DNA from: Candidatus Kaelpia imicola
GTDB lineage: Bacteria > Omnitrophota > Gorgyraeia > Kaelpiales > Kaelpiaceae
DNA length: 64,000 nt
NCBI GenBank assembly: GCA_030765505.1
Contig: JAVCCL010000018.1
Coordinates: forward strand, 1,064-65,063
Reading direction: 5' to 3'
The position numbers were made by a program, and so were the translations under genes. Shown piece after piece: positions 36,482-64,000 of the stretch. Positions within the stretch are counted from its first letter, which is position 1, and the number at the start of each line of letters is the position of its first letter. The notes below the pieces were generated by a model. That model worked only from the letters and a program-made list of their open reading frames with translations, was not told the DNA's origin and did not search any database.

Positions 36482-38101
36482 ATGAGTGAGCCTAATTTTG
36501 ATGCTGTAATATTTGATCTTGACGGGGTTATTACCGATACTGCCGTCCTGCATGTTGAATCCTGGAAGGATATTTTTGACGACTATCTTAAGAAACTGGA
36601 AGCCCGAGGGGGTGAAAAGTTCCGCGAGTTTACCCATAAAGGCGACTACCTTCCCTATGTAGACGGTAAGCCGCGCTATGAAGGGGTTAAGAGTTTTCTT
36701 GCTTCACGCGGTATTGAGCTTCCATTTGGGGACTCAGGTGATGAAGCAGAGAGAGAGACTATATGCGGGTTGGGTAATAAGAAGAACGAACAGTTCGTCA
36801 AGCATCTTAAAGCTGAGGGTGCAGAGGTCTTTCAGTCAACGATTGAGTTTATTAAGGAGCTGCAGAGAAGAGGTATCAAGACAGGAGTTGCTTCATCATC
36901 TAAAAACTGTAAGACTATTCTTGAGTCTGTTGGTATCGAAAATGTGTTCCAAACCCGCGTTGACGGAGTAGTATCTGTAGAGTTAGATTTAAAAGGTAAA
37001 CCCGAAGCCGATATATTCCTGAAAGCAGCCTCTGATATAGGTGCAGAGCCGTCGCGTTCAGTTGTTGTTGAAGATGCAACGAGCGGTGTTATGGCGGGAC
37101 GTAACGGCGGATTTGGTCTGGTCCTTGGTATTGCGCGTGAGGGCCGTATTGAAGACTTGCTTGATAACGGTGCTGATATTGTTGTTTCCGACATGGCTGA
37201 TATATCTGTTGACTGGGTCGATAATTGGTTTAAGAAGAGACCCAGAGAACTCTTCAATAATTGGGATAAGAGCGATAGTGCTATAGATATTGATGGAGAG
37301 CTTATAGATAGTAGTTCTAATGTAAAGATAAACCCTCTCTATCTCTCTTCTGGTTTAGATCTATTCAAGGATAGGAGGCCTGTCATATTTCTTGATTATG
37401 ACGGTACTCTTACTCCGATAGTGGATAGACCTGAGCTTGCTCTGCTCTCAAGTGATATGCGGGAGGTAATCAAAGAGCTGATTGGGAAGTATACCGTAGC
37501 TATTGTAAGCGGGAGAGGGAGAGAGGATGTTGAGAACCTTGTAGATATTAAAGGTATATTCTATGCCGGTAACCATGGTTTTGATATCAAAGGCCCTTCC
37601 CTCTCCATGGTTCAGCCTGACGCAGAACGCGTAATTCCCGCAGTTAAAGAAGCAGTAGATTATTTAAAAAATAGGCTCTCATCTATTGATGGTCTATTGG
37701 TAGAGGAGAAGAAGTTTTCGGTTGCTGTCCATTATAGGCTTGTAGCTGAGGATAGATATCTGAGAGTTATTGAAGATGAGGTTAAGAAGGTAGTAGATAG
37801 AGAGGACTCTTTACGTCTTATGCATGGTAAGAAGGTCTTTGAGATCTTGCCCAATATTTACTGGAACAAGGGCTGCGTGATAAGATGGATAGTCGATATA
37901 CTCAGTCTCTCTTTTAAAGACAATTCAATTGTATATATAGGTGATGATACAACAGATGAAGATGCTTTTAGGGTTATCCGTTCTAGAGGCTGCGGTATTC
38001 TGGTAGCGGAAGAGCTGCGTTCTTCAGCTGCTGATTTTTGGGTCAGGAATCCTGATAGTGTTAAAAAGCTATTTAAGAGACTGATTGAATTGAAAGATTA
38101 A
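36482..38101 (+). CDS. Fused beta-phosphoglucomutase-like HAD domain (N) and trehalose-6-phosphate phosphatase-like HAD domain (C)
   Basis: N-terminal HAD motif I FDLDGVITDT with a beta-PGM-like cap region. A second HAD motif I FLDYDGTLTP and a C-terminal GDDTTDEDAF are typical of OtsB/T6PP. Confidence 0.78.
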   Translation: MSEPNFDAVIFDLDGVITDTAVLHVESWKDIFDDYLKKLEARGGEKFREFTHKGDYLPYVDGKPRYEGVKSFLASRGIELPFGDSGDEAERETICGLGNKKNEQFVKHLKAEGAEVFQSTIEFIKELQRRGIKTGVASSSKNCKTILESVGIENVFQTRVDGVVSVELDLKGKPEADIFLKAASDIGAEPSRSVVVEDATSGVMAGRNGGFGLVLGIAREGRIEDLLDNGADIVVSDMADISVDWVDNWFKKRPRELFNNWDKSDSAIDIDGELIDSSSNVKINPLYLSSGLDLFKDRRPVIFLDYDGTLTPIVDRPELALLSSDMREVIKELIGKYTVAIVSGRGREDVENLVDIKGIFYAGNHGFDIKGPSLSMVQPDAERVIPAVKEAVDYLKNRLSSIDGLLVEEKKFSVAVHYRLVAEDRYLRVIEDEVKKVVDREDSLRLMHGKKVFEILPNIYWNKGCVIRWIVDILSLSFKDNSIVYIGDDTTDEDAFRVIRSRGCGILVAEELRSSAADFWVRNPDSVKKLFKRLIELKD

Positions 38102-38102
38102 T

Positions 38103-51195: not shown

Positions 51196-51221
51196 ACATT
51201 CGGTCTAATATTATTGTCAAC
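51178..51221 (+). repeat. 44-bp composite direct repeat, copy A (ATTGTAAAC-TTATTGTAAAC-13 nt-TTATTGTCAAC)
   Basis: Matches copy B at 52254-52297 in architecture, differing at one A/C and in the spacer. Overlaps the stop codons of the convergent OsmC-like and HTH-GHKL genes. Confidence 0.7.
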
Positions 51222-52236
51222 CAATATGTTTTATCATTGCATCAATAGCTTTATTGGTATTTATGGTCTCTATTTCAATACTTGGATAGTTATTTTTAAA
51301 AACTCTAAATATCTCATCTGCAAAACCTTGTCCTATGCCTCTAACTCCTTTAAAGTTAAGTCTTATCTCTTTAAACTTTTTTAAATTGAATAATAATCTT
51401 TTAGCCTCAGAGCGGGAGAGATAGGAGTCTTTCTCCTTAGTGAAAAGATTTATAGTTACAGCGGTTTTAGAAAATTTATAATCGTATTTTTCGTTACTAT
51501 ACTCATCAAAAATAGTTTTTAATCTCTTTTTGGAGTTTTTGCTGATTGTGAAATTGACTGAAGTTCCTCTTTTGTATTTTATCTTTTGTGTAAATAGATC
51601 ATTTTTTATGTTATCAAAGGTAACCTCTATGTTATGGCTCTTTATGAGAAGCTTATTAGATGCTTTTGATGTAAAAAACAATCCTTCTCCGGAATGGTAT
51701 TTTTTTGCCGTAGTAGTTTTGCCTTTGATCAATTCTTGTAAAGCTTCGTACTCATCCTCTAAGCCGAATTTTTTTTTAATGTTTTCAAATATTCCTATCC
51801 CTTGGTCGTTTATTACAAAGTTTATATTATAGTTATCAACTTTTAATTTAACTTTGGATCTTTTTGATTTAGAATGGTCGATTGCATTATTAAGTATTTC
51901 TGTAAAGGCATAGGATAGGATATCAAATATATTTTTTCTCAGTAGATGTTTTAAATCATATTGAACATTGATTTTATTAAAAACTCTATCTTCTTTTAAA
52001 TTATGAAGTAAACAATCTCTACTTAGCTCTATCGTTAAGTTGTCTGTTTTTTTATCTTTTAGTGCATACTTTACGCCCCTAGTGGTGCCGATTTTTTTTA
52101 TTACCCCTTCAGCGATTAGTCGTTTGATATGTTTATGTATTCCTTGTCTAGTTAACCCCGTAGCTTTAGCTATCTCTTCTATTGTAATATATTCTTGTTG
52201 TCCCAACCTGCTTAAAATTCTATTTTTAATATTCAC
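51217..52236 (-). CDS. HTH - GHKL (histidine-kinase-like) ATPase - DUF4325 (STAS-like) protein
   Basis: Winged HTH EEIAKATGLTRQGIHKHIKRL. GHKL N-box NNAIDHS, G1 DQGIGI and G2 GEGLF. C-terminal ...LNFKGVRGIGQGFADEIFRVF resembles DUF4325. Preferred start is GTG at 52236 (MNIKNRILSRL...). The track's TTG at 52296 would translate the repeat array. The gene is very AT-rich. Confidence 0.65.
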   Translation of the reverse strand: MNIKNRILSRLGQQEYITIEEIAKATGLTRQGIHKHIKRLIAEGVIKKIGTTRGVKYALKDKKTDNLTIELSRDCLLHNLKEDRVFNKINVQYDLKHLLRKNIFDILSYAFTEILNNAIDHSKSKRSKVKLKVDNYNINFVINDQGIGIFENIKKKFGLEDEYEALQELIKGKTTTAKKYHSGEGLFFTSKASNKLLIKSHNIEVTFDNIKNDLFTQKIKYKRGTSVNFTISKNSKKRLKTIFDEYSNEKYDYKFSKTAVTINLFTKEKDSYLSRSEAKRLLFNLKKFKEIRLNFKGVRGIGQGFADEIFRVFKNNYPSIEIETINTNKAIDAMIKHIG

Positions 52237-52243
52237 GGTAATA

Positions 52244-52272
52244 ATTTTAACATATTGTAAACTTATTGTCAA
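52244..52272 (-). promoter_or_regulatory. Near-consensus promoter inside direct-repeat copy B (TTGACA-17-TAAAAT on the minus strand)
   Basis: Minus-strand TTGACA is the reverse complement of TGTCAA at 52267-52272. TAAAAT is the reverse complement of 52244-52249, 7 nt before the GTG start at 52236. Confidence 0.45.
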
Positions 52273-52297
52273 CCTTGCATTAAATATTATTGTCAAC
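52254..52297 (+). repeat. 44-bp composite direct repeat, copy B (ATTGTAAAC-TTATTGTCAAC-13 nt-TTATTGTCAAC)
   Basis: See copy A. Lies in the 5' region of the minus-strand HTH-GHKL gene. Confidence 0.7.
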
Positions 52298-52428: not shown

Positions 52429-52788
52429 ATGAGAAATGGCAAGGTTTTTATCTCTTTGTTTTTAATCTTTTGCTGCCTATCGTTTATTTTTAATGAAGTA
52501 TCTTCTGCACATTCCCCCGAACGGGTAGAGATTAAATTCGTAGGCAGCCTGCTTAAAATTAAGGTATACCATAGCGTGGGAAATACAAATATGCATTATG
52601 TAAAATATATTAACGTATATGTAAATGGGAAGTGGGTTGCTAAGCAGCGTTTCTTCTCCCAGCAGTATGACAGTTATCAAGAGGCGGTCTTTAATATCCC
52701 GGACTTAAAAGCCAAAGATGTACTTCTGGTAATAGCCCATTGCAGTAGAAAGGGAAGAATAGATAAATCAATAATAGCTCCGAATTGA
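52429..52788 (+). CDS. Secreted small protein, paralog 1, with superoxide-reductase-like (desulfoferrodoxin Fe-domain-like) motifs
   Basis: Signal peptide, then AHSPE...VYHSVGNTNMHYVKYINVYV...AHCSRKG. AGGAGAG upstream. Confidence 0.5.
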   Translation: MRNGKVFISLFLIFCCLSFIFNEVSSAHSPERVEIKFVGSLLKIKVYHSVGNTNMHYVKYINVYVNGKWVAKQRFFSQQYDSYQEAVFNIPDLKAKDVLLVIAHCSRKGRIDKSIIAPN

Positions 52789-53132
52789 TGATTAGAATAA
52801 GAAAGATTACGGTTTTGGTCTTCTGCTTATCCTCCTTGCTCTTAACTGTTAGTTTTGCCCATCCTCCCTGGAAGATAACAATAGAGACCCGGGGTAAAGA
52901 TATAGAGGTAACTGTATATCATGAGGTGGCTGACCCTGAAGAGCATTATATAGAGAGAATAGATGTATACTTAAATGGCATCAGACATGCGGACATGGAG
53001 TTTTCTACTCAAACAGACGATCTCCAGATTGTAAGGCTTAGTCTTCCCCCTTTGAAAAAAGGAGATTTTATAGATGTTATGGCCTTTTGTAATAGAGGGG
53101 GAGAGCTAATTGAAAATTTGACTGTAGAATAA
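52785..53132 (+). CDS. Secreted small protein, paralog 2, with superoxide-reductase-like motifs
   Basis: Signal peptide, then AHPPW...VYHEVADPEEHYIERIDVYL...AFCNRGGEL. Compare SOR KHVPVIE...AHPMEEKHYIQWIEL...YCNIHGHW. Overlaps paralog 1 by 4 nt. Confidence 0.5.
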   Translation: MMIRIRKITVLVFCLSSLLLTVSFAHPPWKITIETRGKDIEVTVYHEVADPEEHYIERIDVYLNGIRHADMEFSTQTDDLQIVRLSLPPLKKGDFIDVMAFCNRGGELIENLTVE

Positions 53133-53178: not shown

Positions 53179-53367
53179 ATGAAAAAGCTGGCTCAGTTTT
53201 TAGTAGTAGTCGGAGGTTTAAACTGGGGGCTGGTTGGTTTTTTCAATCTAGACCTTGTTGCCAGAATCTTCGGCGGGTTCTCAACGGTATCGAGGGTTAT
53301 CTATGCCCTTATAGGCCTCTCAGCACTTCACCTGGTTATTATTTCACTTAAGAGAAAGGTAAATTAA
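53179..53367 (+). CDS. DUF378 family small membrane protein
   Basis: GGLNWGLVGFFNLDLVARIFGG...YALIGLSALHLV matches the DUF378 signature. AAAGGAGG RBS. The overlapping track ORF 53151-53351 is in another frame and is rejected. Confidence 0.7.
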   Translation: MKKLAQFLVVVGGLNWGLVGFFNLDLVARIFGGFSTVSRVIYALIGLSALHLVIISLKRKVN

Positions 53368-53566
53368 TTTAAGTGATTTTTGTTCTTCAGAGAGTTTCCT
53401 TCCTTTATATATACAGTATAAGAGACGAGTTTAGTTTTGAGTCAGATTTTAAGCGGTCAAAAGAATGAAAAAAAGTTTTAGAAGATGATTTTTTTTCTTG
53501 ACGTAGTAGCATAATTTAAATTATTATCTTAACAGTTATATATAAACATATTAGTAATCTTAATAT

Positions 53567-56008
53567 ATGAGAAAAAAAACAAGCTTACAATATAGACCAG
53601 AAGCAAAGAGACTTCTGGTTTTTCTTTTAGCAGCTCTCTTACTAACTTCCTTAAGCCCTGCATTATATGCTGCCGGTAGAGACTCTTCCATTGAAGAGGA
53701 GAGAGCAAAGGCTCAGAAGTTAATCCAGCAGGAAGAGAAGGAAGATAGGCGTGAGAAGCAGGCCAGAATAAACAGCCTTTATAAAGAAGCACTCTCTTTC
53801 TATTACGAAGATAATCTAAGAGCAGCTCAGGAGACATTTGAATTGATTCTCCTTATAGCTCCGGATGAGAAAAAAGCAAATAGTTTTATAGAGAGTAAGA
53901 TTCCTGCAAGATCTGAAAAGTTAGTAGAGTTAAAACAGAGAGAGGCAGAGAGAGAAGCAAAGAAGAGGGAAGAGGAGCTTAAGCGTTTAAGAGCCAGGGC
54001 AGAGAGAGAGGCTAAGAGACAGATAGAAGAGCAGGAGCGTGACCAGAAAAAGGCAGAGCTTGAGAGAGAACGTGCCCAGCGTGAAGCAGAGCGTATAAGA
54101 GAGAGACAGAGCATAGAGGAAGAGAAGCAGGCTAAGACAGCAGAGAGAGAGAGGAAGCGTGCTGATAAGGAAGCAGAATTAGAGAGAAAACGCGCAGAGA
54201 AAGAAGCTAAAAGAGCAAGGCAGGATAGAGTAGGTGAGATTTGTGAAGAAGCACTATCTTATTACAAAGAAGGTAATATAGACCAGTCTATAAATTCATT
54301 CCAGCAGGTTCTTAAATTAGATCCGGATAATAAGAGAGCAGAGAGCTACTTAAATAATAAGATTCCTGCTAAGAGAGAGCGCCTTAATGAGATTGCAGAG
54401 CGCGAAAGAGAGAGTCAGAGAGTAGAGAAAGAGAAAGAACTATCTAAATTAAAAGAGAGAGCCCAAAAAGAGGCTCAAGCTCAAGAGAGAGAGCTGGCCA
54501 AAGAGAAGAAGCTTGCTGAAGCTATAGCCGGGAAGCAGGCCAAGAGAATAGAGAGAGAGAAGAAGCTTGCTGAGGCTGAAGCCGAGAAGCATGCCAAGAG
54601 AATAGAAAAAGAGAAGAGGTTGGCTGGAAAAGAGGCTAAGAAGCAGGCTGAGATAGCAGAGAAAAAGGCTCAAAAAGAAACAGCGAAGTTAGAGAGAGAG
54701 AAGAAGCGCGCTGAAAAAGAGGCTCAAAAACAGGCTAAGAAATTAGAGAGAGAGAAGAGGTTGGCTGGAAAAGAGGCTAAGAAGCAGGCTGAGATAGCAG
54801 AGAGAGAGGCTCAAAAGGAATCTAAAAAGTTAGAGATAGAGCAAAAAAGCGCCAGTATAGATACTAAGAGAGAGACAGCAAGGTTAGAAAAAGAGAAGAG
54901 GTTGGCTGAAAAAGAAGCTAAGAAGCAGGCTAAGATAGCAGAGAAAGAAGCCAGAAAACAGGCAAAAATAGCTAAGAAAGAAGCTAAGAAACTTGCAAAA
55001 GCAGAAGGAGTAGAGGAGGAAGTTAAAGAGGTAAGAGAGAAAAAAGAGAAGGCTCCTCGAGTAATCAGTGAAGATAAGCTTAAGAGAAAAGCAGAGGTAG
55101 AAGAGAAGCTTAGAAAGAAAAGAGAGGCCAGGGAAGCAAAGCTTGCCAAGAAAAAAGGGAAGCTGGAAGATAAGAAAGCTGAGAAAATTAAGACAAGAGA
55201 AGATAAAATAAGAGTTGAAGAAGAAGCCCGTATTGCAGCTACGCAGAGCGATTTCATTACTATAAACAGAGTTGTTACTACGCCTGGCTTGGTTCAGGAT
55301 GCAGATGCTTTTGTTGAGGCTAAAAGAGAAGAAGAGTCTATCGCTCTATATAACTACGCGTTAGATGTAACAAAAGATAAATCAATCAGGAAAGAGATTG
55401 CGCTTAAGAAGAGAGCTGCTTTAAAGGCGATAAAGAAGAAAGATAAGCAGAAGGCAAGAGACGAGTATAAGCAGGAAGTGAAGAAAAAGCATGAGACTCA
55501 TCGTGCCAAGATAGAGGCTAAGAGAGAGCAGCGTACTCAAAAGAAAGAGAATAGTAGAAAGATAAACGACCTCTATAGAGAAGCGCTTTCATTATATTAT
55601 GATAATAAGTTTGATGAAGCAGAGGCTAAGTTTAATGAGATCTTAGGATTCTCACCTGATGAAAAAAGAGCCAGGAAGTTTATAGACGTTAAGATTCCTG
55701 CAAGAAAAGAGCAGCTTGAGAATTTAGAAAATAAAACTAAATTACGTAAAGATAAAATAGAAGAGAAGAGCCGTGCTGATAGAGAGGCTAAGAAGCAGGC
55801 TGAGATAGCAGAGAGAGAGGCTCAAAAAGAAACAGCGAAGTTAGAGAGAGAGAAGAAGCGTGCTGAAAAAGAGGCTCAAAAACAGGCTAAGAAATTAGAG
55901 AAAGAAAAGAGGTTAGCTGATAAAGAAGCTGAGAAGGCTCGCATTAAAGCTGAAAGAGAAGAGAAGAAGCAGGAAAAAGAAGAGGAAATTCAGGGAGATA
56001 TAAAATAG
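53567..56008 (+). CDS. Secreted Lys/Glu-rich coiled-coil protein with three conserved TPR-like modules
   Basis: Signal peptide MRKKTSLQYRPEAKRLLVFLLAALLLTSLSPALYA. Three copies of an approximately 55-aa module, each ending in KIPA[RK]xExL (aa ~60-120, ~225-285, ~635-695). Long charged low-complexity helical runs (AKKQAEIAE..., EKKRAEKEAQKQAKKLE...) lie between them. Stop TAG at 56006-56008 directly abuts the tpsB ATG at 56009. Confidence 0.7.
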   Translation: MRKKTSLQYRPEAKRLLVFLLAALLLTSLSPALYAAGRDSSIEEERAKAQKLIQQEEKEDRREKQARINSLYKEALSFYYEDNLRAAQETFELILLIAPDEKKANSFIESKIPARSEKLVELKQREAEREAKKREEELKRLRARAEREAKRQIEEQERDQKKAELERERAQREAERIRERQSIEEEKQAKTAERERKRADKEAELERKRAEKEAKRARQDRVGEICEEALSYYKEGNIDQSINSFQQVLKLDPDNKRAESYLNNKIPAKRERLNEIAERERESQRVEKEKELSKLKERAQKEAQAQERELAKEKKLAEAIAGKQAKRIEREKKLAEAEAEKHAKRIEKEKRLAGKEAKKQAEIAEKKAQKETAKLEREKKRAEKEAQKQAKKLEREKRLAGKEAKKQAEIAEREAQKESKKLEIEQKSASIDTKRETARLEKEKRLAEKEAKKQAKIAEKEARKQAKIAKKEAKKLAKAEGVEEEVKEVREKKEKAPRVISEDKLKRKAEVEEKLRKKREAREAKLAKKKGKLEDKKAEKIKTREDKIRVEEEARIAATQSDFITINRVVTTPGLVQDADAFVEAKREEESIALYNYALDVTKDKSIRKEIALKKRAALKAIKKKDKQKARDEYKQEVKKKHETHRAKIEAKREQRTQKKENSRKINDLYREALSLYYDNKFDEAEAKFNEILGFSPDEKRARKFIDVKIPARKEQLENLENKTKLRKDKIEEKSRADREAKKQAEIAEREAQKETAKLEREKKRAEKEAQKQAKKLEKEKRLADKEAEKARIKAEREEKKQEKEEEIQGDIK
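54632..54767 (+). repeat. Intragenic near-identical DNA repeat, copy 1 (~136 bp)
   Basis: GAGGCTAAGAAGCAGGCTGAGATAGCAGAG...GAAATTAGAG...GAGGTTGGCTG recurs at 55784-55919 with a handful of mismatches. Partial further copies lie at about 54526-54610 and 54775-54815. Confidence 0.7.
55784..55919 (+). repeat. Intragenic near-identical DNA repeat, copy 2 (~136 bp)
   Basis: See 54632-54767. Confidence 0.7.
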
Positions 56009-57778
56009 ATGAAGTTTATTAACTTGCTTATTGCCTATGCTCTTATATTGAGTGTCCCGGTCTATGCGGATGAAGCAGCTAGTGCGGGGGATATGCAGCA
56101 GATTCTTGATAGATTGGACCAGCTTCAGGGTAAGGTAACTCAACTTGAGAGTAAGGTCAAAGAGCAGGATGAAGTGATTAAGAGGCAGAATCAGGCTCTG
56201 GATAAATTAGGTGAGATGGTACCGGAGGTTAAGAAAGCTATGGCACCGCCTGAGCCTAAGGTTGTTGTCAGTAATTTTGTCTTAAGCGGTGTAAATCTCT
56301 TTGATCCGATAGACTTTGAGCCTGTACTTAAGAAGTACAGGAGTAAAGAGTTAGGAATAAGCGACTTAAAGACTATATCCGATGAGTTAACAGCGTTCTA
56401 CCGTTCTAAAGGTTATATTACATCTCTTGCCTATGCTCCGACTCAGGAGATTGAGAATGAGACTGTTGAGTTTAGGGTAATAGAGGGTAGAGTAGGTAAT
56501 ATTGAATTGGAAGGCGGAGAGTACTTTAAGAAAGAGACAATGGCCAAGAGAATTACGATTGAAGAGGGTCAGGTCCTTAATTATGAAAGACTTCAGCGTG
56601 ATGTAAGAAAATTAAATAAGCAGCCTGACAGAACTATGAAGGCAATCCTTCTTCCGGGTCAAGATAAAGGAACAACAGATATACTCATCAAGATGGAAGA
56701 AGAGAGCGATCCAAAACATTTCTATTTCGACTGTAGTAATACTGGAACTGAAGAGACAAAGACAGCCCGTTTTGGTCTAGGTTTTGCTCATAATAATCTT
56801 CTTGGTTATGATGATATCTTATCCATTAAAGCTAGAGTCGGTGACTGGGATATCTACTCAATAAGCGCGGACTACAATGTTCCAATTAATAAGTATAATA
56901 CCCGTATCGGTGCCTATGGAATATTTTCTCATACGGATATAGGCGGTCAGTTTACAGTTATCGAGCCTGAGGGTTCAGCCACAGCATTAGGTGCATATAT
57001 TACTCACCCTCTATTTGATAAAGATTATTTTGATCCAGTGGCTATCAATCTATCAAGTGATGTTATAGCAGGACTTGATTTAATAGATGTTAAAAACATG
57101 CTGTTAGGTGAAGAGACTTCTCACGATGTCTTACGCGTTGCTAAATTAGGTATTAGCTTTGATGAGAGAGATGCATTGGGAAGAACGTTCTTTAATAATG
57201 AGTTTAGAGTTGGAATCGATGGGCTTGGTTCGATGGATAGCAATGATGAATCCTCATCCATTATAGATGCAGGAAGTGAGTTCATGAAATATACCGGTAC
57301 TCTAACTCGTATAACACGTCTTCCATTCAGCATGATGTTTATAAATAACTTAAAGTTCCAGCATACAAATAATCCGCTTGTTACAAGCGAACAGCTGAGT
57401 CTGGGCGGAGCTGATACAATAAGAGGTTATCCTCAGAATGATTACTTAGCAGACTTTGGTTATGTATGTACGTTGGAGCTGCGTACACCCGCATTTATAT
57501 TCCCACGTGAAATTAAAGTTCCTTACGATGATAAAAAGACTCCAATTATGGATGCAGTTCAGTTTGTATACTTTGTTGACTTTGGTAAAGGACATCGTAA
57601 GAATCCGCGTGTAGGTGAAACAAAAGATCAGTTTATGATTGGAACCGGTTTCGGTTTCAGGTTTGATCTATATGAACATCTGCGTGCCAGACTGGACTTT
57701 GGATTCCCTGCGGGTAATGAAGAACCTTCAGACGGATCCTCCGGTACAGTCCACGTAGGCGTACAATACGAATTCTAA
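56009..57778 (+). CDS. Two-partner-secretion outer-membrane transporter (TpsB; ShlB/FhaC/HecB family)
   Basis: Signal peptide, an approximately 60-aa coiled-coil N-region, a POTRA-like segment (ITSLAYAPTQEIENETVEFRVIEGRVGNIELEGGEYFKKETMAKRI), and a C-terminal beta-barrel ending in an aromatic residue (...VGVQYEF). Confidence 0.82.
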   Translation: MKFINLLIAYALILSVPVYADEAASAGDMQQILDRLDQLQGKVTQLESKVKEQDEVIKRQNQALDKLGEMVPEVKKAMAPPEPKVVVSNFVLSGVNLFDPIDFEPVLKKYRSKELGISDLKTISDELTAFYRSKGYITSLAYAPTQEIENETVEFRVIEGRVGNIELEGGEYFKKETMAKRITIEEGQVLNYERLQRDVRKLNKQPDRTMKAILLPGQDKGTTDILIKMEEESDPKHFYFDCSNTGTEETKTARFGLGFAHNNLLGYDDILSIKARVGDWDIYSISADYNVPINKYNTRIGAYGIFSHTDIGGQFTVIEPEGSATALGAYITHPLFDKDYFDPVAINLSSDVIAGLDLIDVKNMLLGEETSHDVLRVAKLGISFDERDALGRTFFNNEFRVGIDGLGSMDSNDESSSIIDAGSEFMKYTGTLTRITRLPFSMMFINNLKFQHTNNPLVTSEQLSLGGADTIRGYPQNDYLADFGYVCTLELRTPAFIFPREIKVPYDDKKTPIMDAVQFVYFVDFGKGHRKNPRVGETKDQFMIGTGFGFRFDLYEHLRARLDFGFPAGNEEPSDGSSGTVHVGVQYEF

Positions 57779-57963: not shown

Positions 57964-60900
57964 ATGAATACCAAAAAAATGGGTATTTGTAATCGTTTTT
58001 TTAGAATACTGTTTGCAGCACTATTTTTGCAGTATATGGCACTGCCGCCTACCCCCGTCTATGCCGAGGGTTTGCCTACTGGTATATCTGACCAGATAGG
58101 CTCATCCACGGTTACTGTTGAAGGGGATGCAATGACCCATACAACAGGCGATATGAAGTATTGGGGTGATGCTGAGTCTTTTGATATCGGTGTCAATAAT
58201 ACTTTAAATAGTATTGGTCCTAATGCTGGTGCGGTTATGCTCTATAATGTTACAGGTGATGCTGGTTCTAGCTTAGCGGGTGTTTGGAACAGTAACTGTA
58301 ACCAATTCCTGCTTAACCCTAACGGTATACTATTTACTGAGACTGCTCAGTTAAACCTTGGAGGTCTTGTAGCATCAACTCTGTCTATGACAAAAGAGGA
58401 TTTCTTATCTGGTAGTTATGTGCTATCAGGAGCTGATGTAGTTACTCTTGGCAATAATATAATAAATGAAGGTGCTATTGAGACTACCAATCCTTTTGGT
58501 GTTACCTTTGCATCAGGTGCAATAAGAAATACAGGCTCTATTAAAGCTAATCTTGGTGTCGTTAATATGATATCAGGTAAAGGCGTTACCCTTAATGTTG
58601 CAGGAGATGGTTCTATTCAGGCAGCAGTATCTCAGGATTTACTTAATAATGTCTATGATTCTGATGGGAGAAGAGTAGCTGTTGGTGTTGATAATGTCGG
58701 AACTATTCAAGCTGATGGTGGTGAAATAAGAATAGAAGTAGGAGCAGTTCAGGATGTCTTTGATACTCTTATAAATCAAGAAGGTGTAGTAAGAGCTGGT
58801 TCATTGGTTGAGAAAAATGGAAAGATTGTACTTATTTCAGATGATGAAGGAATAATACAGAATACAGGTACTATAACAGCATCTGCCATTGAAGATGGAG
58901 CAGATGGTGGAACAATTGAGATGCGTGGTTCAAAAGTTGGTCAGTTTGGTGAAGTAAGAGTTGATGCACTTGGTGAAGGTGATGGTGGAAGTATAACTTT
59001 ATATGCTAATGATGTAGTTGCTTTATCAAGTGGAAGTATTACAACTGCTAATGCAAATGTGGATGGAAGTGGTGGTGAAATAATAGTTTATTCACCTGAG
59101 ACAGCTTTATTCTGGCAGAATGCAAGAATCGAAGCTAAAGGTGGTTCTGCTTCTGGAGATGGTGGATTTGTTGAGGTGTCAGGTAAAGAACACATTGAGA
59201 TATATGGTATAGTTGATGCTAGCGCAGCTAATGGCTCTAGCGGTTTGTTCTATATGGATCCTACCGATGTTACTCTTTCCGATGCGACAGTTGGTATGGA
59301 TAACTCTCCTACTTGGGATCCGATTGCTGTTGATCCTAATACTGGCACTATTAACGTAGCCACTATTGTAACATCTCTTGAAGCTGGTACATCTGTGTCA
59401 GTTGATACTTTTGATGATAATGCCGGTGGTGGTACTGGAAGAATTATCGTGGCTAACGCAATTAGTGTAGATTTATCAGCTGCTGGAGGATTGACTGTTG
59501 AGGCTCCTACGTTAACCCTGAATGCGCAGGATGATATTGATATTAACGCTTCAATTGGTGTAAGCGCTACTGATGCTGGTGGCGATTTGCTCAACTTAAC
59601 TTTGAACGCAACTAATGGTGTCGATGTTGGCGCTAATATCACCGATCTATCTGGCGGTACGTTTACATCCATTGGAACAACATTTAATAATACCGGTGGT
59701 GCAATTACCACTGGCGGTGGCGCAGTAGATCTTAGCGGGCACACAGGCGCAATAACTATCGGCGCAGCAATAAATGCTGGTGCTGGTACCTTTCATTCTC
59801 ATGGAACTAATTTTAATAACACTGATGGCATAATTACTACAACAGATACTAGCGCAACAGCTGTACAAATAAACAATACTGGGATAGTAACCATTGGTGC
59901 TAATATTCTATCTTCAGGCGAAATAACCATTGATAGTGCTTCAAGCGTTTCAGTAGCAGCCGCAGCAACTGGTAATACTTGTACTAATTTAGATATTGAT
60001 ACAACAGGTGCGTTTGCTGCAACTGGGGGTTCAAAAATTACCGGTGGCGGAGATGGAACAGACCTCAACATTAACGCGGCAGGCATAGCCTTAGATGGAA
60101 CAGCAGGCGGGCAGTTAATAAATACGGCAGGTGGAAAAATAACCCTTGTTTCAACTGGCGCTAATAGTGTATTTTTAGAAAATGATTCCATAAATAATGC
60201 AACAGGGCTTGTGAGTTTGACTTCAGCAGGCCAAATTAGAGGTTCTACCTTTGGCGGTAACGATGGTATTGCAGAAATTGATGCTGATGGTAATGTTACC
60301 TTTTCTGCCAATGGCACTGGTAATCCAGCCCAGCTTGAGATTACTGGCGATGGAAGTGGAGATAGCACTCTAACTATTACCAACACCGGAGCAAATAACG
60401 TAGATATCCAGGAATTAACCAATCAGTTCAACCAGGTTACTATTACCCAACAGAATGCTTCATCTTGGATTGACATAGATTTTAGCGATGCGGATCTTGT
60501 TGACATCGACGGCGCTATTATAGAGAACCTTGTCTTGAGCAATGGCGACGTAGGCTTTACCTATTCACTTACACCTGTCGCAGCTTTAAATGTCTGCGGA
60601 ACTGCCTTTACCACCGGAGCGACCTCTGCAGTAAGCATAACAGCAAATGGCGTAATTACTCAAACCAGTGCCGTAACAGTTAACGGAGGAGGCGTTACTT
60701 TTGCAGCCGGTGCAGCAAATGACATAACTTTAAGTAATGCCAATAATGATTTTATTGGTGCTGTAGCTGTTACTACGGGTGATGATGTAACTTTAAGAGA
60801 TGTAAATGCCATAATTTTAGGTGCATCCACTATTTCCGGAAACTTAGCCGTAACCTCTTCCGGTAATATAACCGATAATGGTAGCGCATTATCTGTAACG

Positions 60901-63900
60901 GGAACGACCACGCTGATCCCGGGAGCGGGAAACAGCATCATCTTGGATACTGCCGGAAACAATTTTACCGGCGCTGTATCAGTAACCAATGGAACAGATG
61001 CAACATTTGTAGATACCAATGCTTTGGCTATGGGGACAACGTCTATTACAGGAGTATTAACCCTTACAGCTGGCGGCAACATAACAGATAGTGGAGTAAT
61101 AACTGCAGGAACCCTTACCACAACCAATGCTACCGGATCTACGATATTGGATCAGAACAATATCATTTCTAACCTTGGTGCAACAATCACCTCCATCGGT
61201 GGCAACTTTGAGTTAACCAACACCACACCCCTTGCTTTAACCGATATAACAGCCACAGGCCATGATATAACCATAGACAACACTGGTAATGCTGTGACAT
61301 TTAATACAGGAAGCAATATAGCCGCGAATAACTTTACAGTAACAGCTTCAGCAATTACTACTTTGAATAATTCAGATTTAAGTGCTGTAGCTACTTCAAC
61401 AACACTTCAGCCTAATGCAGCAGGAACTGCTATAGGGCTAGCTGGCGGTGCAGGAGCATTCAGTCTTGATGCAAGTGAAATAACAGTTCTTAAGGCATCC
61501 GGCGGTTCGGTAGTAATAGGAAGAGTTGCGGGAGCAACAGGCGCGCTTACACTCGGAGCAGATGTAGACCTTGCAGGTAAAACTGCAACTATCTACAGCG
61601 GCCGAATTAATGATGCTAGTAATACAATTTCAGCAGACACTCTTACCTTAATTTTAAGTTCTACTGCAGCAGGCGGCAATACAGTAAAGACCAATGTAGC
61701 AACACTGGCAGCTGATACTACAGGCGGCACAGCCACAGCAGACAGAGCCTTGATTGTCACCGAAACAGATGGAGTAGCTCTGAGTACCATTACACTTAAT
61801 GACGGTGCATTAAATGTTACTACCAGCGGTGCAGTTACAACTTCAGGGGTAATTACTACTACCGGCATTACTACCATTGCAGCCGGCGCGGGGAATAATA
61901 TAACCCTTAACAATGCAGATAATGATTTCAGCACCGTAGCCATAACCACAGGTAACGATGTAACTTTAAGAGATACCAATGCTATAGTCTTAGGAGCATC
62001 TACTATTTCCGGAGCATTAGATGTAACATCCTCTGGCTCTATAACAGATAATGGCGGTGCATTAGTTGTAACCGGGACAACTACTCTTGCACCAGGTGCA
62101 GGAAGCAGTATTGTTTTAAATACCGCAACAAATGACTTCACCGGTGTTGTATCAATAACTAATGGCATAAATGCAACATTGGTAGATGTCGATGATATAA
62201 CCCTTGGAGCAATGGCAATTACCGGGACATTGAATATAACAGCTGGCGCTGCAATTGCAGATGATTTGATCCAGGCTACATTAGTAAATGCCTCCAGTTT
62301 GATTATGACTGCTGCAACGTCAATAGGTGCTGCAGGTGACGGAGATATTGATACGACGAGTGTTACTTCTTTGACAGTAGATGCCAATGATGATATATAC
62401 GTTGACGGTGATAGTCAGCTGGCATCATTGACAATCACATTAGATCCTAACGGAGCTGCAACATATGATTTGACAAACTTTACAAACCTTACAGAAAATA
62501 TTACTACAGATGGGACAAACCTGACAATAGCCCAATTAGACACAAGTACTGCTACGGCAATGTCCTTAACTGCAGATACAGGAAACATCGCAGTCACAAG
62601 TTTTGATTCTGTTACTACAGGTACACTTAATTTAACTGCCAGTAGCGGAAATATAGCTGTGGGAGAGATTGGGATAGCTACTGGAAGCGGAGATGTCACC
62701 TTAAGTGCATCCGGCACAATCACTGATTCTAATGCTAATGTAAATACCAATATTACTACTACAGGAGCTGTTAGCTTAACAGGTCTTACTGGCATTGGTA
62801 TAAGCGGTGGAGATGCTGTTGATATTGCAAGCGCCACAGCTTTGACGATTGACACCAATGGTTATTTTAGCGTTATCGGTACTGGCGGGGGATTAACCTT
62901 AACCGACCTGACAATAACTCTTGATACGGCTGGTGCTGGAGTATATTCGCTGACCGGTATCAACAACAACACCCTGACGCTGGTCGATGATGTTGGTAAT
63001 TTAACCCTGACAGCTTTTAATAACATAGGTACAACAAATCTTTCACTCACAAATGATACAGGAAATATTACAGTTGCAAGTTTTGATACAACCGGTGCAG
63101 GTACGCTTAGTTTGACTGCCAGTAGCGGAAATATAATTTTGACTAACGCTGCTGATACAATGGTTACCGGGAGCGGTGCCGTATCGGTTACAGCCAGCGG
63201 TACGATAAATGATACTGCTGATGCTGCAGGAAATGCAGTCACTACTACAGGAACTCTGACACTGGATTCAAATAGTACTATCGGAGCAAGTGGCAACTAT
63301 TTGGATGTAGAAGTTGATGGTCTAACTGTTGATAGTCAAGGTATAGCATATATACGTAATAATGTAGCCGCAGATACTACATTATATATTGATACCAATA
63401 ACACGGATTATCATTATATTCAGCCTACTAATAACATTCTTATTAATAGGGTAGATGCCGGGACTGCTGATGTTTATATAACAGCAACAGCAGGATCTGT
63501 ATTGGATCATGCTTCAGATTCTACAGTTGATATAATAGGCGATGATCTGACTATAATAATATCTAGTGGTGTTTATGATATTGGTGCCTCAGGTAATGCA
63601 CTTGATACTCAAGTTACTAATATCTATACTCTGTCTACAGCGAATGGTGACATCTACATTAATGAGACAGATAGCGGTGTTACACAGACTGGCGGAGCAG
63701 GAATTTCAGCTGTTGGGTCTGATGTAAATATTACAGTTGCAGGTCCTTATACAGCCAGCACTGCTATTTCTGCAGGTACAACTGGTACTATCACAATAGA
63801 TGTTAATGATAATGTTGCTGATGATGGAGTCTTTACTACCAATGCTGCTGGTACTCTAACTGCAGGTTCAGGTAGTGGTGGGATTACTATTACAGCAGAC

Positions 63901-64000
63901 GGCGGTGTCACTTTAGGTCTTGCTGCAGTAACAACAGACGGTGCTATCTCAATTGATGCTGATAATGATTCAAATAATATCGGTACATTTACAAGCAATG
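57964..64000 (+). CDS. Giant TpsA exoprotein (filamentous-hemagglutinin-like beta-helical adhesin/toxin), 5' end with TPS domain; 3' end beyond the window
   Basis: ATG at 57964 preceded by AAAAAGGAG. Extended signal peptide MNTKKMGICNRFFRILFAALFLQYMALPPTPVYA. TPS secretion domain with the hallmark ...NQFLLNPNGILFTETAQ... (NPNGI). The remainder is Gly/Thr/Asn/Ala/Val-rich beta-helix repeats. Frame 1 was checked open at roughly 15 spot points through to 64000. It is absent from the ORF track because there is no in-window stop. All minus-strand track ORFs in 59250-63998 are antisense artefacts. Confidence 0.85.
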   Translation, partial: MNTKKMGICNRFFRILFAALFLQYMALPPTPVYAEGLPTGISDQIGSSTVTVEGDAMTHTTGDMKYWGDAESFDIGVNNTLNSIGPNAGAVMLYNVTGDAGSSLAGVWNSNCNQFLLNPNGILFTETAQLNLGGLVASTLSMTKEDFLSGSYVLSGADVVTLGNNIINEGAIETTNPFGVTFASGAIRNTGSIKANLGVVNMISGKGVTLNVAGDGSIQAAVSQDLLNNVYDSDGRRVAVGVDNVGTIQADGGEIRIEVGAVQDVFDTLINQEGVVRAGSLVEKNGKIVLISDDEGIIQNTGTITASAIEDGADGGTIEMRGSKVGQFGEVRVDALGEGDGGSITLYANDVVALSSGSITTANANVDGSGGEIIVYSPETALFWQNARIEAKGGSASGDGGFVEVSGKEHIEIYGIVDASAANGSSGLFYMDPTDVTLSDATVGMDNSPTWDPIAVDPNTGTINVATIVTSLEAGTSVSVDTFDDNAGGGTGRIIVANAISVDLSAAGGLTVEAPTLTLNAQDDIDINASIGVSATDAGGDLLNLTLNATNGVDVGANITDLSGGTFTSIGTTFNNTGGAITTGGGAVDLSGHTGAITIGAAINAGAGTFHSHGTNFNNTDGIITTTDTSATAVQINNTGIVTIGANILSSGEITIDSASSVSVAAAATGNTCTNLDIDTTGAFAATGGSKITGGGDGTDLNINAAGIALDGTAGGQLINTAGGKITLVSTGANSVFLENDSINNATGLVSLTSAGQIRGSTFGGNDGIAEIDADGNVTFSANGTGNPAQLEITGDGSGDSTLTITNTGANNVDIQELTNQFNQVTITQQNASSWIDIDFSDADLVDIDGAIIENLVLSNGDVGFTYSLTPVAALNVCGTAFTTGATSAVSITANGVITQTSAVTVNGGGVTFAAGAANDITLSNANNDFIGAVAVTTGDDVTLRDVNAIILGASTISGNLAVTSSGNITDNGSALSVTGTTTLIPGAGNSIILDTAGNNFTGAVSVTNGTDATFVDTNALAMGTTSITGVLTLTAGGNITDSGVITAGTLTTTNATGSTILDQNNIISNLGATITSIGGNFELTNTTPLALTDITATGHDITIDNTGNAVTFNTGSNIAANNFTVTASAITTLNNSDLSAVATSTTLQPNAAGTAIGLAGGAGAFSLDASEITVLKASGGSVVIGRVAGATGALTLGADVDLAGKTATIYSGRINDASNTISADTLTLILSSTAAGGNTVKTNVATLAADTTGGTATADRALIVTETDGVALSTITLNDGALNVTTSGAVTTSGVITTTGITTIAAGAGNNITLNNADNDFSTVAITTGNDVTLRDTNAIVLGASTISGALDVTSSGSITDNGGALVVTGTTTLAPGAGSSIVLNTATNDFTGVVSITNGINATLVDVDDITLGAMAITGTLNITAGAAIADDLIQATLVNASSLIMTAATSIGAAGDGDIDTTSVTSLTVDANDDIYVDGDSQLASLTITLDPNGAATYDLTNFTNLTENITTDGTNLTIAQLDTSTATAMSLTADTGNIAVTSFDSVTTGTLNLTASSGNIAVGEIGIATGSGDVTLSASGTITDSNANVNTNITTTGAVSLTGLTGIGISGGDAVDIASATALTIDTNGYFSVIGTGGGLTLTDLTITLDTAGAGVYSLTGINNNTLTLVDDVGNLTLTAFNNIGTTNLSLTNDTGNITVASFDTTGAGTLSLTASSGNIILTNAADTMVTGSGAVSVTASGTINDTADAAGNAVTTTGTLTLDSNSTIGASGNYLDVEVDGLTVDSQGIAYIRNNVAADTTLYIDTNNTDYHYIQPTNNILINRVDAGTADVYITATAGSVLDHASDSTVDIIGDDLTIIISSGVYDIGASGNALDTQVTNIYTLSTANGDIYINETDSGVTQTGGAGISAVGSDVNITVAGPYTASTAISAGTTGTITIDVNDNVADDGVFTTNAAGTLTAGSGSGGITITADGGVTLGLAAVTTDGAISIDADNDSNNIGTFTSN
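60704..61110 (+). repeat. Intragenic ~400-bp repeat in tpsA, copy 1
   Basis: Protein-level AAGAANDITLSNANNDFIGAVAVTTGDDVTLRDVNAIILGASTISGNLAVTSSGNITDNGSALSVTGTTTLIPGAG... parallels copy 2 at 61880-62290. Confidence 0.6.
61880..62290 (+). repeat. Intragenic ~400-bp repeat in tpsA, copy 2
   Basis: AAGAGNNITLNNADNDFSTVAITTGNDVTLRDTNAIVLGASTISGALDVTSSGSITDNGGALVVTGTTTLAPGAG... A further shorter repeat pair lies at 62578-62660 and 63058-63140 (TGNIxVxSFD...GTLxLTASSGNI). Confidence 0.6.

What the first reader, a model, noticed from the sequence alone, without database searches (positions are those of the whole stretch)
53567..56008. Secreted Lys/Glu-rich coiled-coil protein with three conserved ~55-aa TPR-like modules, translationally abutted to tpsB
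Three modules recur at aa ~60-120, ~225-285 and ~635-695. Each has the pattern ...LY(K/R)EALS(F/Y/L)YY..N.......F..(I/V)L...PD(E/N)K(K/R)A..(F/Y)(I/L)..KIPA(R/K)xE(K/R/Q)L. They are separated by hundreds of residues of AKKQAEIAE/EKKRAEKEA charged helix. The DNA contains near-identical ~136-bp repeats (54632-54767 and 55784-55919) plus partial copies, so the length is likely hypervariable. The stop codon touches the tpsB start codon (TAGATG). This places a periplasmic, spacer-like, TolA-reminiscent protein in the same operon as a two-partner secretion transporter. I do not know this as a described TPS component.
Basis: seen in the sequence. Interest (0 to 1): 0.7.

Follow-up and report, generated by a model that had tools for sequence, protein, structure and literature searches.

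The report
Third partner of two-partner secretion
The gene is real and encodes an exported, rod-like helical protein that sits directly in front of the outer-membrane transporter and giant adhesin genes of a secretion system in many uncultured Omnitrophota, which suggests this "two-partner" system has an undescribed third partner there.

Summary
ORF 53567-56008 (813 aa) has one N-terminal signal-like segment, three about 64-aa single-TPR "KIPA(R/K)" modules, charged helices built from 11/18/29/47-aa repeats, and a TAG stop touching the tpsB ATG. The window matches Candidatus Kaelpia imicola (Omnitrophota).

This is a single-copy about 65-aa module (aa 561-625, "SDFITIN...YNYALDVTKDK").

I fetched 33 related TpsB loci that have upstream DNA:
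- 17 carry a charged secreted protein with exactly one such module directly upstream.
- 7 more carry a charged ORF cut by the contig end.
- 6 lack it, but their TpsB carries N-terminal SH3b repeats on Pro/Lys linkers.
- 3 have neither.

A giant TpsA follows wherever downstream DNA exists. The KIPAR modules are optional (0 to 16 copies).

The helices have 3.6-residue periodicity, not heptad, and there is no TolA homology.

Most likely this is a periplasmic scaffold or holdase that docks at TpsB and handles the unfolded giant TpsA. A cell-wall tether role is the main rival. Its function is inferred, not shown. I found no description in the literature. It is a new variant of a known kind.

The parts
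53498..53527 (+). Sigma-70-like promoter candidate (TTGACG-18-TATTAT), 40 nt upstream of the start codon
   Evidence: Best-scoring site in the region, 10 of 12 matches. This is a consensus match only; the number of sites in the region does not exceed shuffles.
53567..56008 (+). Accessory gene of the TPS operon: 813-aa exported all-alpha protein (signal peptide, 3 KIPAR single-TPR modules, 1 signature module, long charged helices)
   Evidence: ORF. Orthologs P0019 (Ca. Kaelpia aquatica), L006 and L009. Family-wide synteny with TpsB and TpsA.
53567..53671 (+). Signal-peptide-like N-terminus (aa 1-35: K/R-rich n-region, LLVFLLAALLLTSL, ALYA/AG); no lipobox
   Evidence: The only hydrophobic segment in the protein; the single Cys is at 226. 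Equivalent N-termini occur in the homologs. The cleavage site is inferred.
53750..53941 (+). KIPAR module 1 (aa 62-125): one TPR hairpin plus a KIPAR-containing helix
54212..54403 (+). KIPAR module 2 (aa 216-279); present in Ca. K. aquatica, absent from the L009 ortholog
   Evidence: Pfam TPR_2 32.9 bits at aa 227-255..
54404..55231 (+). Long charged helix (aa 280-555) built from 11/18/29/47-aa repeats; contains the 54632-54767 copy of the 136-bp repeat
   Evidence: Apolar periodicity 3.60-3.62 with power 1.9-2.7, against shuffles 0.74+-0.26.
55247..55441 (+). Signature module (aa 561-625: SDFITINRVV...ALYNYALDVTKDKSIRKEIALKK). It is single-copy and is the element conserved in all TpsB-linked homologs.
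   Evidence: HMM 77.5 bits here and 65-95 bits in 17 further loci, once per protein. The AF2 model shows a TPR-like hairpin after an unstructured beta-prone stretch.
55544..55735 (+). KIPAR module 3 (aa 660-723). It is joined to the signature module by one continuous 74-residue helix, forming a 'supermodule'.
   Evidence: AF2 pLDDT 93.3. The signature-to-first-KIPAR spacing is 80-84 aa in most of the 16 family proteins and 70-111 in three, with 105 in the window.
55784..55919 (+). Second copy of the 136-bp repeat, inside the C-terminal charged helix (aa 724-813)
   Evidence: 130 of 136 bases identical to 54632-54767.
55993..56011 (+). Coupling junction: GGGAGA Shine-Dalgarno-like element inside the last codons (..QGDIK), TAG, then the ATG of tpsB
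   Evidence: The same cagggagatat(a/t)aaata(g/a) sequence occurs in L009, L005 and L006, with TAGATG in L009 and L005.
56009..57778 (+). TpsB transporter (589 aa); 100% identical to a protein NCBI names from Ca. Kaelpia imicola
   Evidence: Pfam ShlB and POTRA_2. P0157. AF2 pLDDT 87.7, with Foldseek best matches CdiB 6wim (E 2.8e-33) and FhaC.
56084..56218 (+). 45-residue N-terminal helix of TpsB (aa 26-70), conserved across the clade whether or not the partner gene is present
   Evidence: Alignments. AF2 helix H26-70 with low placement confidence, pLDDT 41-66.
57964..64000 (+). Giant TpsA cargo (more than 2012 aa; runs off the window)
   Evidence: TIGR01901 at aa 71-141 and DUF5649 repeats. 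Homologous TpsA lies downstream of TpsB in the related loci, with ORFs of up to more than 3300 aa.

Best explanation
Shown: the gene encodes a Sec-exported, non-lipidated, all-alpha protein. It is the conserved first gene of a three-gene operon (accessory, TpsB, giant TpsA) that is typical of Omnitrophota.

Shown: the protein is modular. It has one invariant ~65-aa signature module, consisting of a short beta-prone stretch 'DYITIK' and a TPR-like hairpin 'YNYAYD(I/V)xKDK'. It has zero to sixteen solitary TPR units of the 'KIP' type. It has long, highly charged helices of variable length that act as spacers.

Inferred: the protein stays in the periplasm. The signature module docks it to the TpsB periplasmic part (POTRA domains or the long N-terminal helix). 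The TPR units, spread along rigid helices, bind and hold the unfolded 2000-4000-aa TpsA chain between the Sec translocon and the TpsB pore. This would make it a dedicated scaffold or holdase. The role is analogous to BamD for BamA, or to the periplasmic TPR domains of polymer exporters (AlgK/AlgE, BcsC, PgaA).

Inferred from sequence: translation is coupled to tpsB through a Shine-Dalgarno-like element embedded in its last codons.
For: Linkage, starting from TpsB. Of 33 related TpsB loci with upstream DNA:
- 17 have the signature-module protein directly upstream on the same strand.
- 7 more have a truncated K/E/R/A/Q-rich ORF there.

Linkage, starting from the module protein:
- P0015, P0002, P0007, P0014 and P0005 lie directly upstream of TpsB.
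- P0006 lies next to a TpsB locus.
- Only P0003 does not.

Cargo. A homologous giant TpsA follows TpsB wherever downstream DNA exists.

Vertical inheritance. The linkage persists down to 37-42% TpsB identity (L003, L008, L046) and is lost at 32% (L045).

Coupling. The TAGATG junction and embedded GGGAGA are conserved in L009 and L005.

Export signal. One N-terminal hydrophobic segment and no lipobox.

TPR nature. Pfam TPR_2. Consensus-TPR structures are the top PDB sequence matches to the KIP module.

Structure. The AF2 model (pLDDT 93.3) shows two TPR-like hairpins on one 74-residue helix, and the 'DFITIN' stretch is unstructured in the monomer.

Periplasmic setting. KIP modules are fused to a Wza-like Poly_export/SLBB periplasmic domain in P0022. 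P0003 is next to a SurA-like chaperone gene.

Prior knowledge. In the 2017 TPS review, the term search for accessory components surfaced only bcpO.
Against: - No interaction, localisation or secretion data exist. Everything about function is inferred from gene order and domain type.
- The KIP/TPR units, which are the supposed client-binding parts, are absent from about half of the TpsB-linked homologs (L024, L026, L030-L034, L036, L038, L039). A TPR-based holdase cannot be the universal function.
- In six loci the gene is replaced by SH3b repeats fused to TpsB. This points more to anchoring than to chaperoning.
- Two loci at 53-54% TpsB identity (L007, L011) lack the partner, as does L045 at 32%.
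- If fully extended, the helices (about 280 residues, roughly 40 nm by my own estimate) would exceed a typical periplasm width.
- The AF2 placement of the TpsB N-terminal helix is low-confidence, so nothing supports a specific docking site.
Confidence: 0.5

Rival explanations
1. Envelope tether or ruler. The protein is a rigid periplasmic rod that fixes TpsB relative to the cell wall or inner membrane, or sets envelope spacing around the secretion site. It does not handle the cargo.
For: In L013, L015, L016, L017, L019 and L021 the partner gene is missing. TpsB instead carries 2-3 bacterial SH3 domains on Pro/Lys/Ala-rich linkers at its N-terminus (SH3_3 91.8 and 75.2 bits). It has the same 'beads on a rod' layout and is attached to the same conserved N-terminal helix. 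SH3b domains commonly bind peptidoglycan (established knowledge). Half of the homologs have no KIP/TPR units and are essentially one signature module on long charged helices. The helices have an apolar stripe with 3.6 periodicity, as expected for straight helices.
Against: No peptidoglycan-binding or membrane-anchor domain is detectable in the window protein. Length varies from about 310 to 1100 aa between relatives, which is odd for a ruler. The SH3b domains could equally be surface-exposed, because the N-terminus of the FhaC H1 helix is at the cell surface.
Confidence: 0.25
2. Surface or extracellular fibre. The protein leaves the periplasm and forms part of a surface layer or stalk together with the TpsA adhesin.
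For: It is a long, variable, repeat-rich helical protein of the kind often found on cell surfaces. It is encoded with a giant adhesin-like TpsA.
Against: It lacks a TPS domain, which is the recognition element for TpsB (no hit). It is all-alpha. No other export signal was found. KIP modules are fused to a periplasmic Poly_export/SLBB domain in P0022.
Confidence: 0.08
3. Incidental neighbour. It is a generic TPR or low-complexity protein that happens to lie upstream of tpsB, which has its own promoter.
For: The promoter scan lists weak sigma-70-like sites inside the gene's 3' part (55576, 55716). P0003 is not next to a TpsB.
Against: The gene order is conserved across TpsB identities of 37-85% and across many independent metagenomes, with gaps of -141 to +45 nt (stop-to-stop ORF distances). 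The SD-containing junction is conserved. The number of promoter-like sites does not exceed shuffles (12 found vs 11.2+-3.9).
Confidence: 0.05
4. The ORF is an artefact of purine-rich, low-complexity DNA.
For: The composition is extreme: AT skew 0.49 and GC skew 0.40 in 54001-56000.
Against: Orthologs have conserved modules and variable spacers. There are profile hits at E 1e-158. The structure model is confident.
Confidence: 0.01

Closest known systems
Two-partner (type Vb) secretion systems such as FhaB/FhaC and CdiA/CdiB
   Same: The TpsB has a ShlB barrel and two POTRA domains, and its model matches CdiB and FhaC. The TpsA has a TPS/NPXG domain. The genes are adjacent.
   Different: There is a conserved third gene upstream that encodes a periplasmic-type helical/TPR protein. 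The TpsB N-terminal helix is about 45 residues, against about 20 for H1 in FhaC (my recollection of the FhaC structure). In the 2017 TPS review, the term search for accessory components surfaced only bcpO.
BamD-BamA and TamB-TamA (partners of other Omp85 proteins)
   Same: In each case a periplasmic partner works with the POTRA-bearing Omp85 protein. BamD is built of TPRs.
   Different: The window protein has no lipobox. Its TPRs are solitary rather than a compact five-TPR domain. No homology was detected. The similarity is functional analogy only.
Periplasmic TPR scaffolds of polymer exporters (AlgK/AlgE, BcsC, PgaA, PelB)
   Same: TPR units are combined with an outer-membrane beta-barrel that exports a long linear polymer. 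P0022 shows KIP modules fused to a Wza-like export domain.
   Different: Those scaffolds have contiguous TPR superhelices, often fused to the barrel, and their cargo is polysaccharide. Here the TPRs are spaced by charged helices and the cargo is a protein. This comparison rests on my own knowledge and was not tested.
TolA domain II and CpoB (YbgF)
   Same: All are Lys/Ala/Glu-rich long periplasmic helices. CpoB combines a coiled coil with TPRs, and there is a weak PDB hit to YbgF 2xev (E 1e-3).
   Different: There is no TolA or YbgF family hit. There is no N-terminal membrane anchor beyond a signal-peptide-like segment and no TolA C-terminal domain. The periodicity is 3.6, not heptad.
Tandem 'KIP' TPR-repeat proteins annotated only as 'tetratricopeptide repeat protein' or hypothetical protein (e.g. 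MCF7893606.1 Omnitrophota; ABB23257.1 Chlorobium luteolum)
   Same: They have the same module: LYxEAxxxFxxxxYxxAxxxFxEILxLDPxxxxAxxYLxxKIP.
   Different: In those proteins the module is tandem, with a 53-55-aa period in the Omnitrophota arrays (about 110 aa in the Chlorobium protein) and up to about 16-17 copies at domain E<=0.01 (one search lists up to about 30 matched stretches). The window protein has three copies separated by 90-380 aa of charged helix.

Membership tests
Two-partner secretion operon (type Vb) | TpsB with a 16-strand ShlB-type barrel and two POTRA domains | tested here: met
   Pfam ShlB 85.6 bits and POTRA_2 71.5 bits. The AF2 model matches CdiB 6wim with E 2.8e-33 and TM 0.68-0.74.
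Two-partner secretion operon (type Vb) | Cargo with an N-terminal TPS domain encoded next to TpsB | tested here: met
   TIGR01901 43 bits (cut-off 29.1) at aa 71-141 of the ORF starting at 57964. The L002 homolog hits Pfam TPS with 77.6 bits.
TpsA-type substrate (would apply if the 813-aa protein were itself secreted by TpsB) | TPS domain in the protein | tested here: not met
   No TPS or NPXG hit in Pfam or NCBIfam. The model is all-alpha.
TPR repeat proteins | 34-residue helix-turn-helix matching the TPR consensus | tested here: met
   TPR_2 32.9 bits (cut-off 27) on module 2. The family profile matches consensus-TPR structures at profile positions 101-137. AF2 shows helix hairpins.
TPR repeat proteins | Three or more adjacent repeats forming a superhelical domain | tested here: not met
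   In the window protein each TPR is solitary, at aa 62-125, 216-279 and 660-723. In tandem relatives the period is 53-55 aa, not 34.
TolA | Homology to TolA and its C-terminal domain III, with an N-terminal membrane anchor | tested here: not met
   No TolA family hit in Pfam or NCBIfam at E<=0.1 and E<=0.01 respectively. The N-terminus looks like a cleavable signal peptide.
Canonical left-handed coiled coil | Heptad (3.5-residue) apolar periodicity | tested here: not met
   For aa 280-555 the power at 3.5 is 0.02-0.06, against 0.94-1.93 at 3.60; the 1.93 value (apolar set including Ala) compares with shuffles 0.74+-0.26.
ER/K single alpha-helix (SAH) domains | Excess of opposite charges at i to i+3 or i+4 | tested here: inconclusive
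   z = 2.8 for aa 120-215, but z = 0.5 for aa 280-555 and aa 720-813.
BamD/AlgK-type TPR lipoproteins | Lipobox cysteine after the signal peptide | tested here: not met
   The only Cys is at position 226.
New TpsB-linked family defined here (signature-module proteins) | Exactly one ~65-aa 'DYITIK...YNYAYDxxKDK' module, a signal peptide, a K/E/R/A/Q-rich helical body, and a gene directly upstream of a TpsB of the Omnitrophota clade | tested here: met
   77.5 bits at aa 561-625, one copy. Composition. Gene order.

The most novel reading that the evidence does not exclude
Omnitrophota use a 'three-partner' type Vb secretion system. A dedicated periplasmic rod-like protein docks through its single signature module onto TpsB, an Omp85 protein for which no partner protein is known to me. 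It is required to pass adhesins of several thousand residues across the envelope. In some lineages the same job is done by SH3b repeats fused to TpsB. This would be the first dedicated accessory subunit of a TpsB transporter.
Probability: 0.4. Interest if true: 0.75.

Novelty: new variant of a known kind. Interest (0 to 1): 0.6.

Why it matters
Two-partner secretion is the textbook minimal secretion system: one transporter and one cargo. Other Omp85 machines (BAM, TAM) need partners.

A conserved third gene in a whole phylum would show that TpsB transporters can also recruit a periplasmic subunit. It would also give a handle on how very long unfolded proteins cross the periplasm.

Omnitrophota are ultra-small, probably host-dependent bacteria (my background knowledge), and their giant surface proteins are thought to be central to that lifestyle. 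This operon is therefore a candidate for their attachment machinery.

Practically, the signature module gives a specific marker. It is absent from Pfam and NCBIfam, and it could be used to annotate proteins that are now labelled only 'TPR repeat' or 'hypothetical'.

Tried and rejected
1. The search for homologous proteins with short module alignments (A1 and A6) returned nothing. The word index is not sensitive to 65-aa profiles. The exhaustive representative search was used instead.
2. The search for related loci with the single TpsB found nothing in genome contigs. TpsB alignments A2 and A4 worked.
3. Exact look-up of the 813-aa protein found no record.
The MSA was rebuilt from permitted proteins.
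5. Foldseek of the partner model against the PDB gave no global match (best E 0.06, local TPR similarity only). The afdb50 library was unavailable.
6. I looked for fusions of the signature or KIP modules to TpsB. None was found in 85 TpsB homologs, and no TpsB domain was found in the 150 module proteins.
7. The idea that the conserved TpsB N-terminal helix is the partner's docking site is not supported by distribution. The helix is also present in partner-less and SH3b-fused TpsBs.
8. SAH (ER/K helix) character is only weakly supported.
9. 'TpsC' in the literature refers to Neisseria tpsA cassettes and is unrelated.
10. A complex model of partner plus TpsB could not be run with the tools.
Full report
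**1. What is in the window**

The ORF 53567..56008 (+) encodes 813 aa. Its stop codon TAG (56006-56008) is followed at once by the ATG of the next gene.

The protein is 18.9% K, 18.9% E, 13.7% A and 10.5% R. It has one hydrophobic segment (aa ~16-30) after a K/R-rich start, and its only cysteine is at position 226. I therefore read it as Sec-exported and not lipidated. This is an inference; no signal-peptide predictor was available.

- KIPA[RK] occurs at aa 111, 265 and 709, and EALS at aa 74, 228 and 672.
- The modules are aa 62-125, 216-279 and 660-723.
- They are 40-46% identical to each other.
- Module 2 passes the Pfam TPR_2 cut-off.

The DNA repeats are also real. 54632-54767 and 55784-55919 share 130 of 136 bases. 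The charged region is built from tandem units of 33, 54 and 141 nt, plus an 87-nt spacing between repeat copies, which correspond to 11, 18, 47 and 29 aa.

The next gene (56009..57778) is a TpsB.
- It hits Pfam ShlB and POTRA_2.
- Its AF2 model has pLDDT 87.7.
- The model best matches CdiB and FhaC.

The following ORF (57964 to beyond 64000) is a TpsA, with a TIGR01901 hit and DUF5649 repeats.

**2. Origin**

The TpsB is 100% identical to a protein that NCBI names from a Candidatus Kaelpia imicola MAG. This is an Omnitrophota genus described from Ace Lake, Antarctica (PMC8542988).

P0019 from Ca. Kaelpia aquatica is a syntenic ortholog of the 813-aa protein. Its contig ends inside the gene.

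**3. The KIPAR module belongs to a large family**

I built a profile of the three modules and searched 1.84 billion representative proteins. It found 4918 proteins at E<=1e-3 and 74 at E<=1e-30.

The best hits are signal-peptide proteins with up to about 30 copies of the same unit. The unit often repeats in tandem with a 53-55-aa period, with the pattern LYxEAxxxFxxxxYxxAxxxFxEILxLDPxxxxAxxYLxxKIP.

Against PDB sequences, the core of the unit aligns with consensus 34-residue TPRs.

One member, P0022, is fused to a Wza-like Poly_export/SLBB domain. Another, P0001, is a 1901-aa protein of Chlorobium luteolum.

**4. Test of the link to TpsB**

*From the module side.* Five module proteins lie directly upstream of a TpsB that is followed by a TpsA-like giant ORF:
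- P0015 (L002)
- P0002 (L003)
- P0007 (L008)
- P0014 (L041)
- P0005 (L042 and L043)

P0006 lies beside a TpsB that has its own KIP protein upstream. P0003 is not next to a TpsB and instead sits by a SurA-like gene.

*From the TpsB side.* TpsB alignments retrieved 35 loci, and two more came from protein hits. Four of these have no usable upstream DNA. The remaining 33 break down as follows:

| Class | Number | Loci |
|---|---|---|
| K/E/R/A/Q-rich secreted protein directly upstream, same strand | 17 | L006, L008, L009, L014, L020, L022, L024, L026, L030-L034, L036, L038, L039, L046 |
| Such an ORF, cut by the contig end | 7 | L005, L010, L023, L025, L027, L028, L035 |
| No partner, but TpsB has an N-terminal extension | 6 | L013, L015, L016, L017, L019, L021 |
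| Neither | 3 | L007, L011, L045 |

For the 17 complete cases, the distance from the partner's end to the start of the TpsB reading frame is -141 to +45 nt. L038 is an exception because its partner is split into two ORFs.

Some loci are near-duplicates of each other: L026 and L036, L034 and L039, and L016, L017 and L019.

A homolog of the window TpsA follows TpsB wherever downstream DNA exists, with ORFs of up to more than 3300 aa.

All named TpsB homologs come from Omnitrophota.

**5.

Reading the upstream proteins showed that many have no KIPAR module at all. All of them share one ~65-aa module: SDYITIKxRPxxEVLxxAxxLxxxGKYxEALxxYNYAYDIxKDKxxKKxIL.

An HMM of this module scores 65-95 bits, exactly once per protein, in all 17 complete upstream proteins. 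It scores 77.5 bits at aa 561-625 of the window protein.

The KIPAR copy number ranges from 0 to 16. The signature module, not the KIPAR module, defines the TpsB-linked family.

In most family proteins the signature module is followed, at a near-constant 80-84 aa, by the first KIPAR unit. In the window the distance is 105 aa, to module 3.

**6. Structure**

I ran AF2 on aa 555-725 with a 16-sequence alignment. The result has pLDDT 93.3 and pTM 0.63.
- The 'SDFITINRVV' stretch is unstructured with low confidence.
- It is followed by a TPR-like hairpin.
- One 74-residue helix then runs into the KIPAR TPR hairpin.
- A final helix carries KIPAR.

Foldseek finds no global PDB analogue.

The charged regions have apolar periodicity at 3.60-3.62 and essentially none at 3.5. 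They are therefore not a canonical heptad coiled coil.

Evidence for an ER/K single alpha-helix is weak.

There is no TolA similarity.

**7. The TpsB side**

The clade's TpsBs share a 45-residue N-terminal helix.

In the six partner-less loci, this helix is preceded by 2-3 SH3_3 domains on Pro/Lys/Ala-rich linkers.

The helix is also present in partner-less L007, so it is not specific to partner binding.

**8. Coupling and variability**

In the window, L009 and L005, the last codons (..QGDIK) contain GGGAGA followed by TAGATG. L006 has the same element with a 5-nt spacer.

Orthologs differ in length and module content.
- L009, whose TpsB is 85% identical, has a 724-aa partner and lacks module 2.
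- L006 has at least 556 aa and only two KIPAR modules, with a run of N inside the repeats.

L001 and L044 end in or beside the repeat array. This shows assembly fragility, not population polymorphism.

**9. Interpretation**

Shown: the gene is real. The protein is exported and all-alpha. It is the conserved first gene of an accessory-TpsB-TpsA operon in Omnitrophota.

Inferred: it acts in the periplasm as a TpsB-associated scaffold or holdase for the giant unfolded TpsA. The signature module would be the docking element and the TPR units the peptide-binding beads.

The SH3b-fused variants, and the many homologs without TPR units, keep an anchoring or tether role as a serious rival.

**10. Novelty**

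I found no paper linking Omnitrophota with two-partner secretion, and none describing a TPR or helical TPS accessory. In the TPS review PMC5422565, the term search for accessory components surfaced only bcpO.

Public annotations say only 'tetratricopeptide repeat protein' or 'hypothetical protein'.

I rate this a new variant of a known kind of system.

Noticed in passing
L013, L015, L016, L017, L019, L021 (e.g. L017:4152-7226); also P0177, P0178, P0181, P0185: TpsB homologs (52-55% identity) carry a 200-430-aa N-terminal extension of 2-3 bacterial SH3 domains separated by Pro/Lys/Ala/Val-rich linkers. These loci lack the upstream partner gene.
   Followed up: partly
window 56084-56218 (TpsB aa 26-70): A conserved 45-residue N-terminal helix precedes POTRA1 in all TpsBs of this clade. 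This is much longer than the H1 plug helix of FhaC. AF2 does not place it confidently (pLDDT 41-66).
   Followed up: partly
window 53567-57778: The partner gene and tpsB are in the same reading frame, separated by a single TAG. TAGATG recurs in L009 and L005. Readthrough was not examined, and TpsB has its own signal peptide.
   Followed up: no
window 52429-52788 and 52785-53132: Two overlapping tandem paralogs (119 and 115 aa) with signal-peptide-like N-termini and weak similarity to the desulfoferrodoxin ferrous-iron-binding domain (TIGR00332, E 2e-3 to 5e-3, below cut-off). Two small ORFs occupy the same position in L001, and a homolog is seen in L006.
   Followed up: no
window 53179-53367: Small DUF378 membrane protein gene between the paralog pair and the partner gene, also present in L001.
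   Followed up: no
window 51217-52296 (-): The only minus-strand gene nearby encodes a winged-helix HTH, an HATPase_c-like domain and a STAS-like DUF4325 domain. It is conserved in L001.
   Followed up: no
P0022 (751 aa, JGI metagenome): Five KIP-type TPR modules separated by charged helices are fused to a C-terminal Poly_export plus SLBB (Wza-like) domain.
   Followed up: partly
P0001 = ABB23257.1 / WP_011357132.1, Chlorobium (Pelodictyon) luteolum DSM 273: A 1901-aa 'hypothetical / TPR repeat' protein of a cultivated green sulfur bacterium is the top hit of the KIPAR profile (17 modules, E 1.7e-158). Its gene context could not be checked.
   Followed up: no
L038:6915-9844; L006:3436-5106; L001 end; L044 start: The partner gene is repeatedly damaged in assemblies. 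It is split into two frames in L038, has a run of N in L006, and contigs end in or beside the repeat array in L001 and L044.
   Followed up: partly
L004:3443-4297: The one signature-module protein not next to a TpsB (P0003) is followed by a SurA_N-type chaperone gene, a HAMP protein and murB.
   Followed up: no
window 57964-64000: The window TpsA does not reach the Pfam TPS model and is recognised only by TIGR01901. Most of the visible 2012 aa consists of DUF5649 repeats.
   Followed up: no
C-termini of tandem-type family proteins (e.g. P0002 aa ~1037-1098, P0003 aa ~899-954): A distinct terminal module 'YPKDGxxGYLYExAFxxYxxGDxxxAxxYFxKILxxxPxE' closes the tandem arrays. It is absent from the window protein.
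   Followed up: no
window 36482-40517: A trehalose-phosphatase/HAD fusion gene and a GH65 glycoside hydrolase (trehalose/maltose phosphorylase type) lie adjacent. Nearly all genes of the window are on the + strand, with positive GC skew throughout.
   Followed up: no
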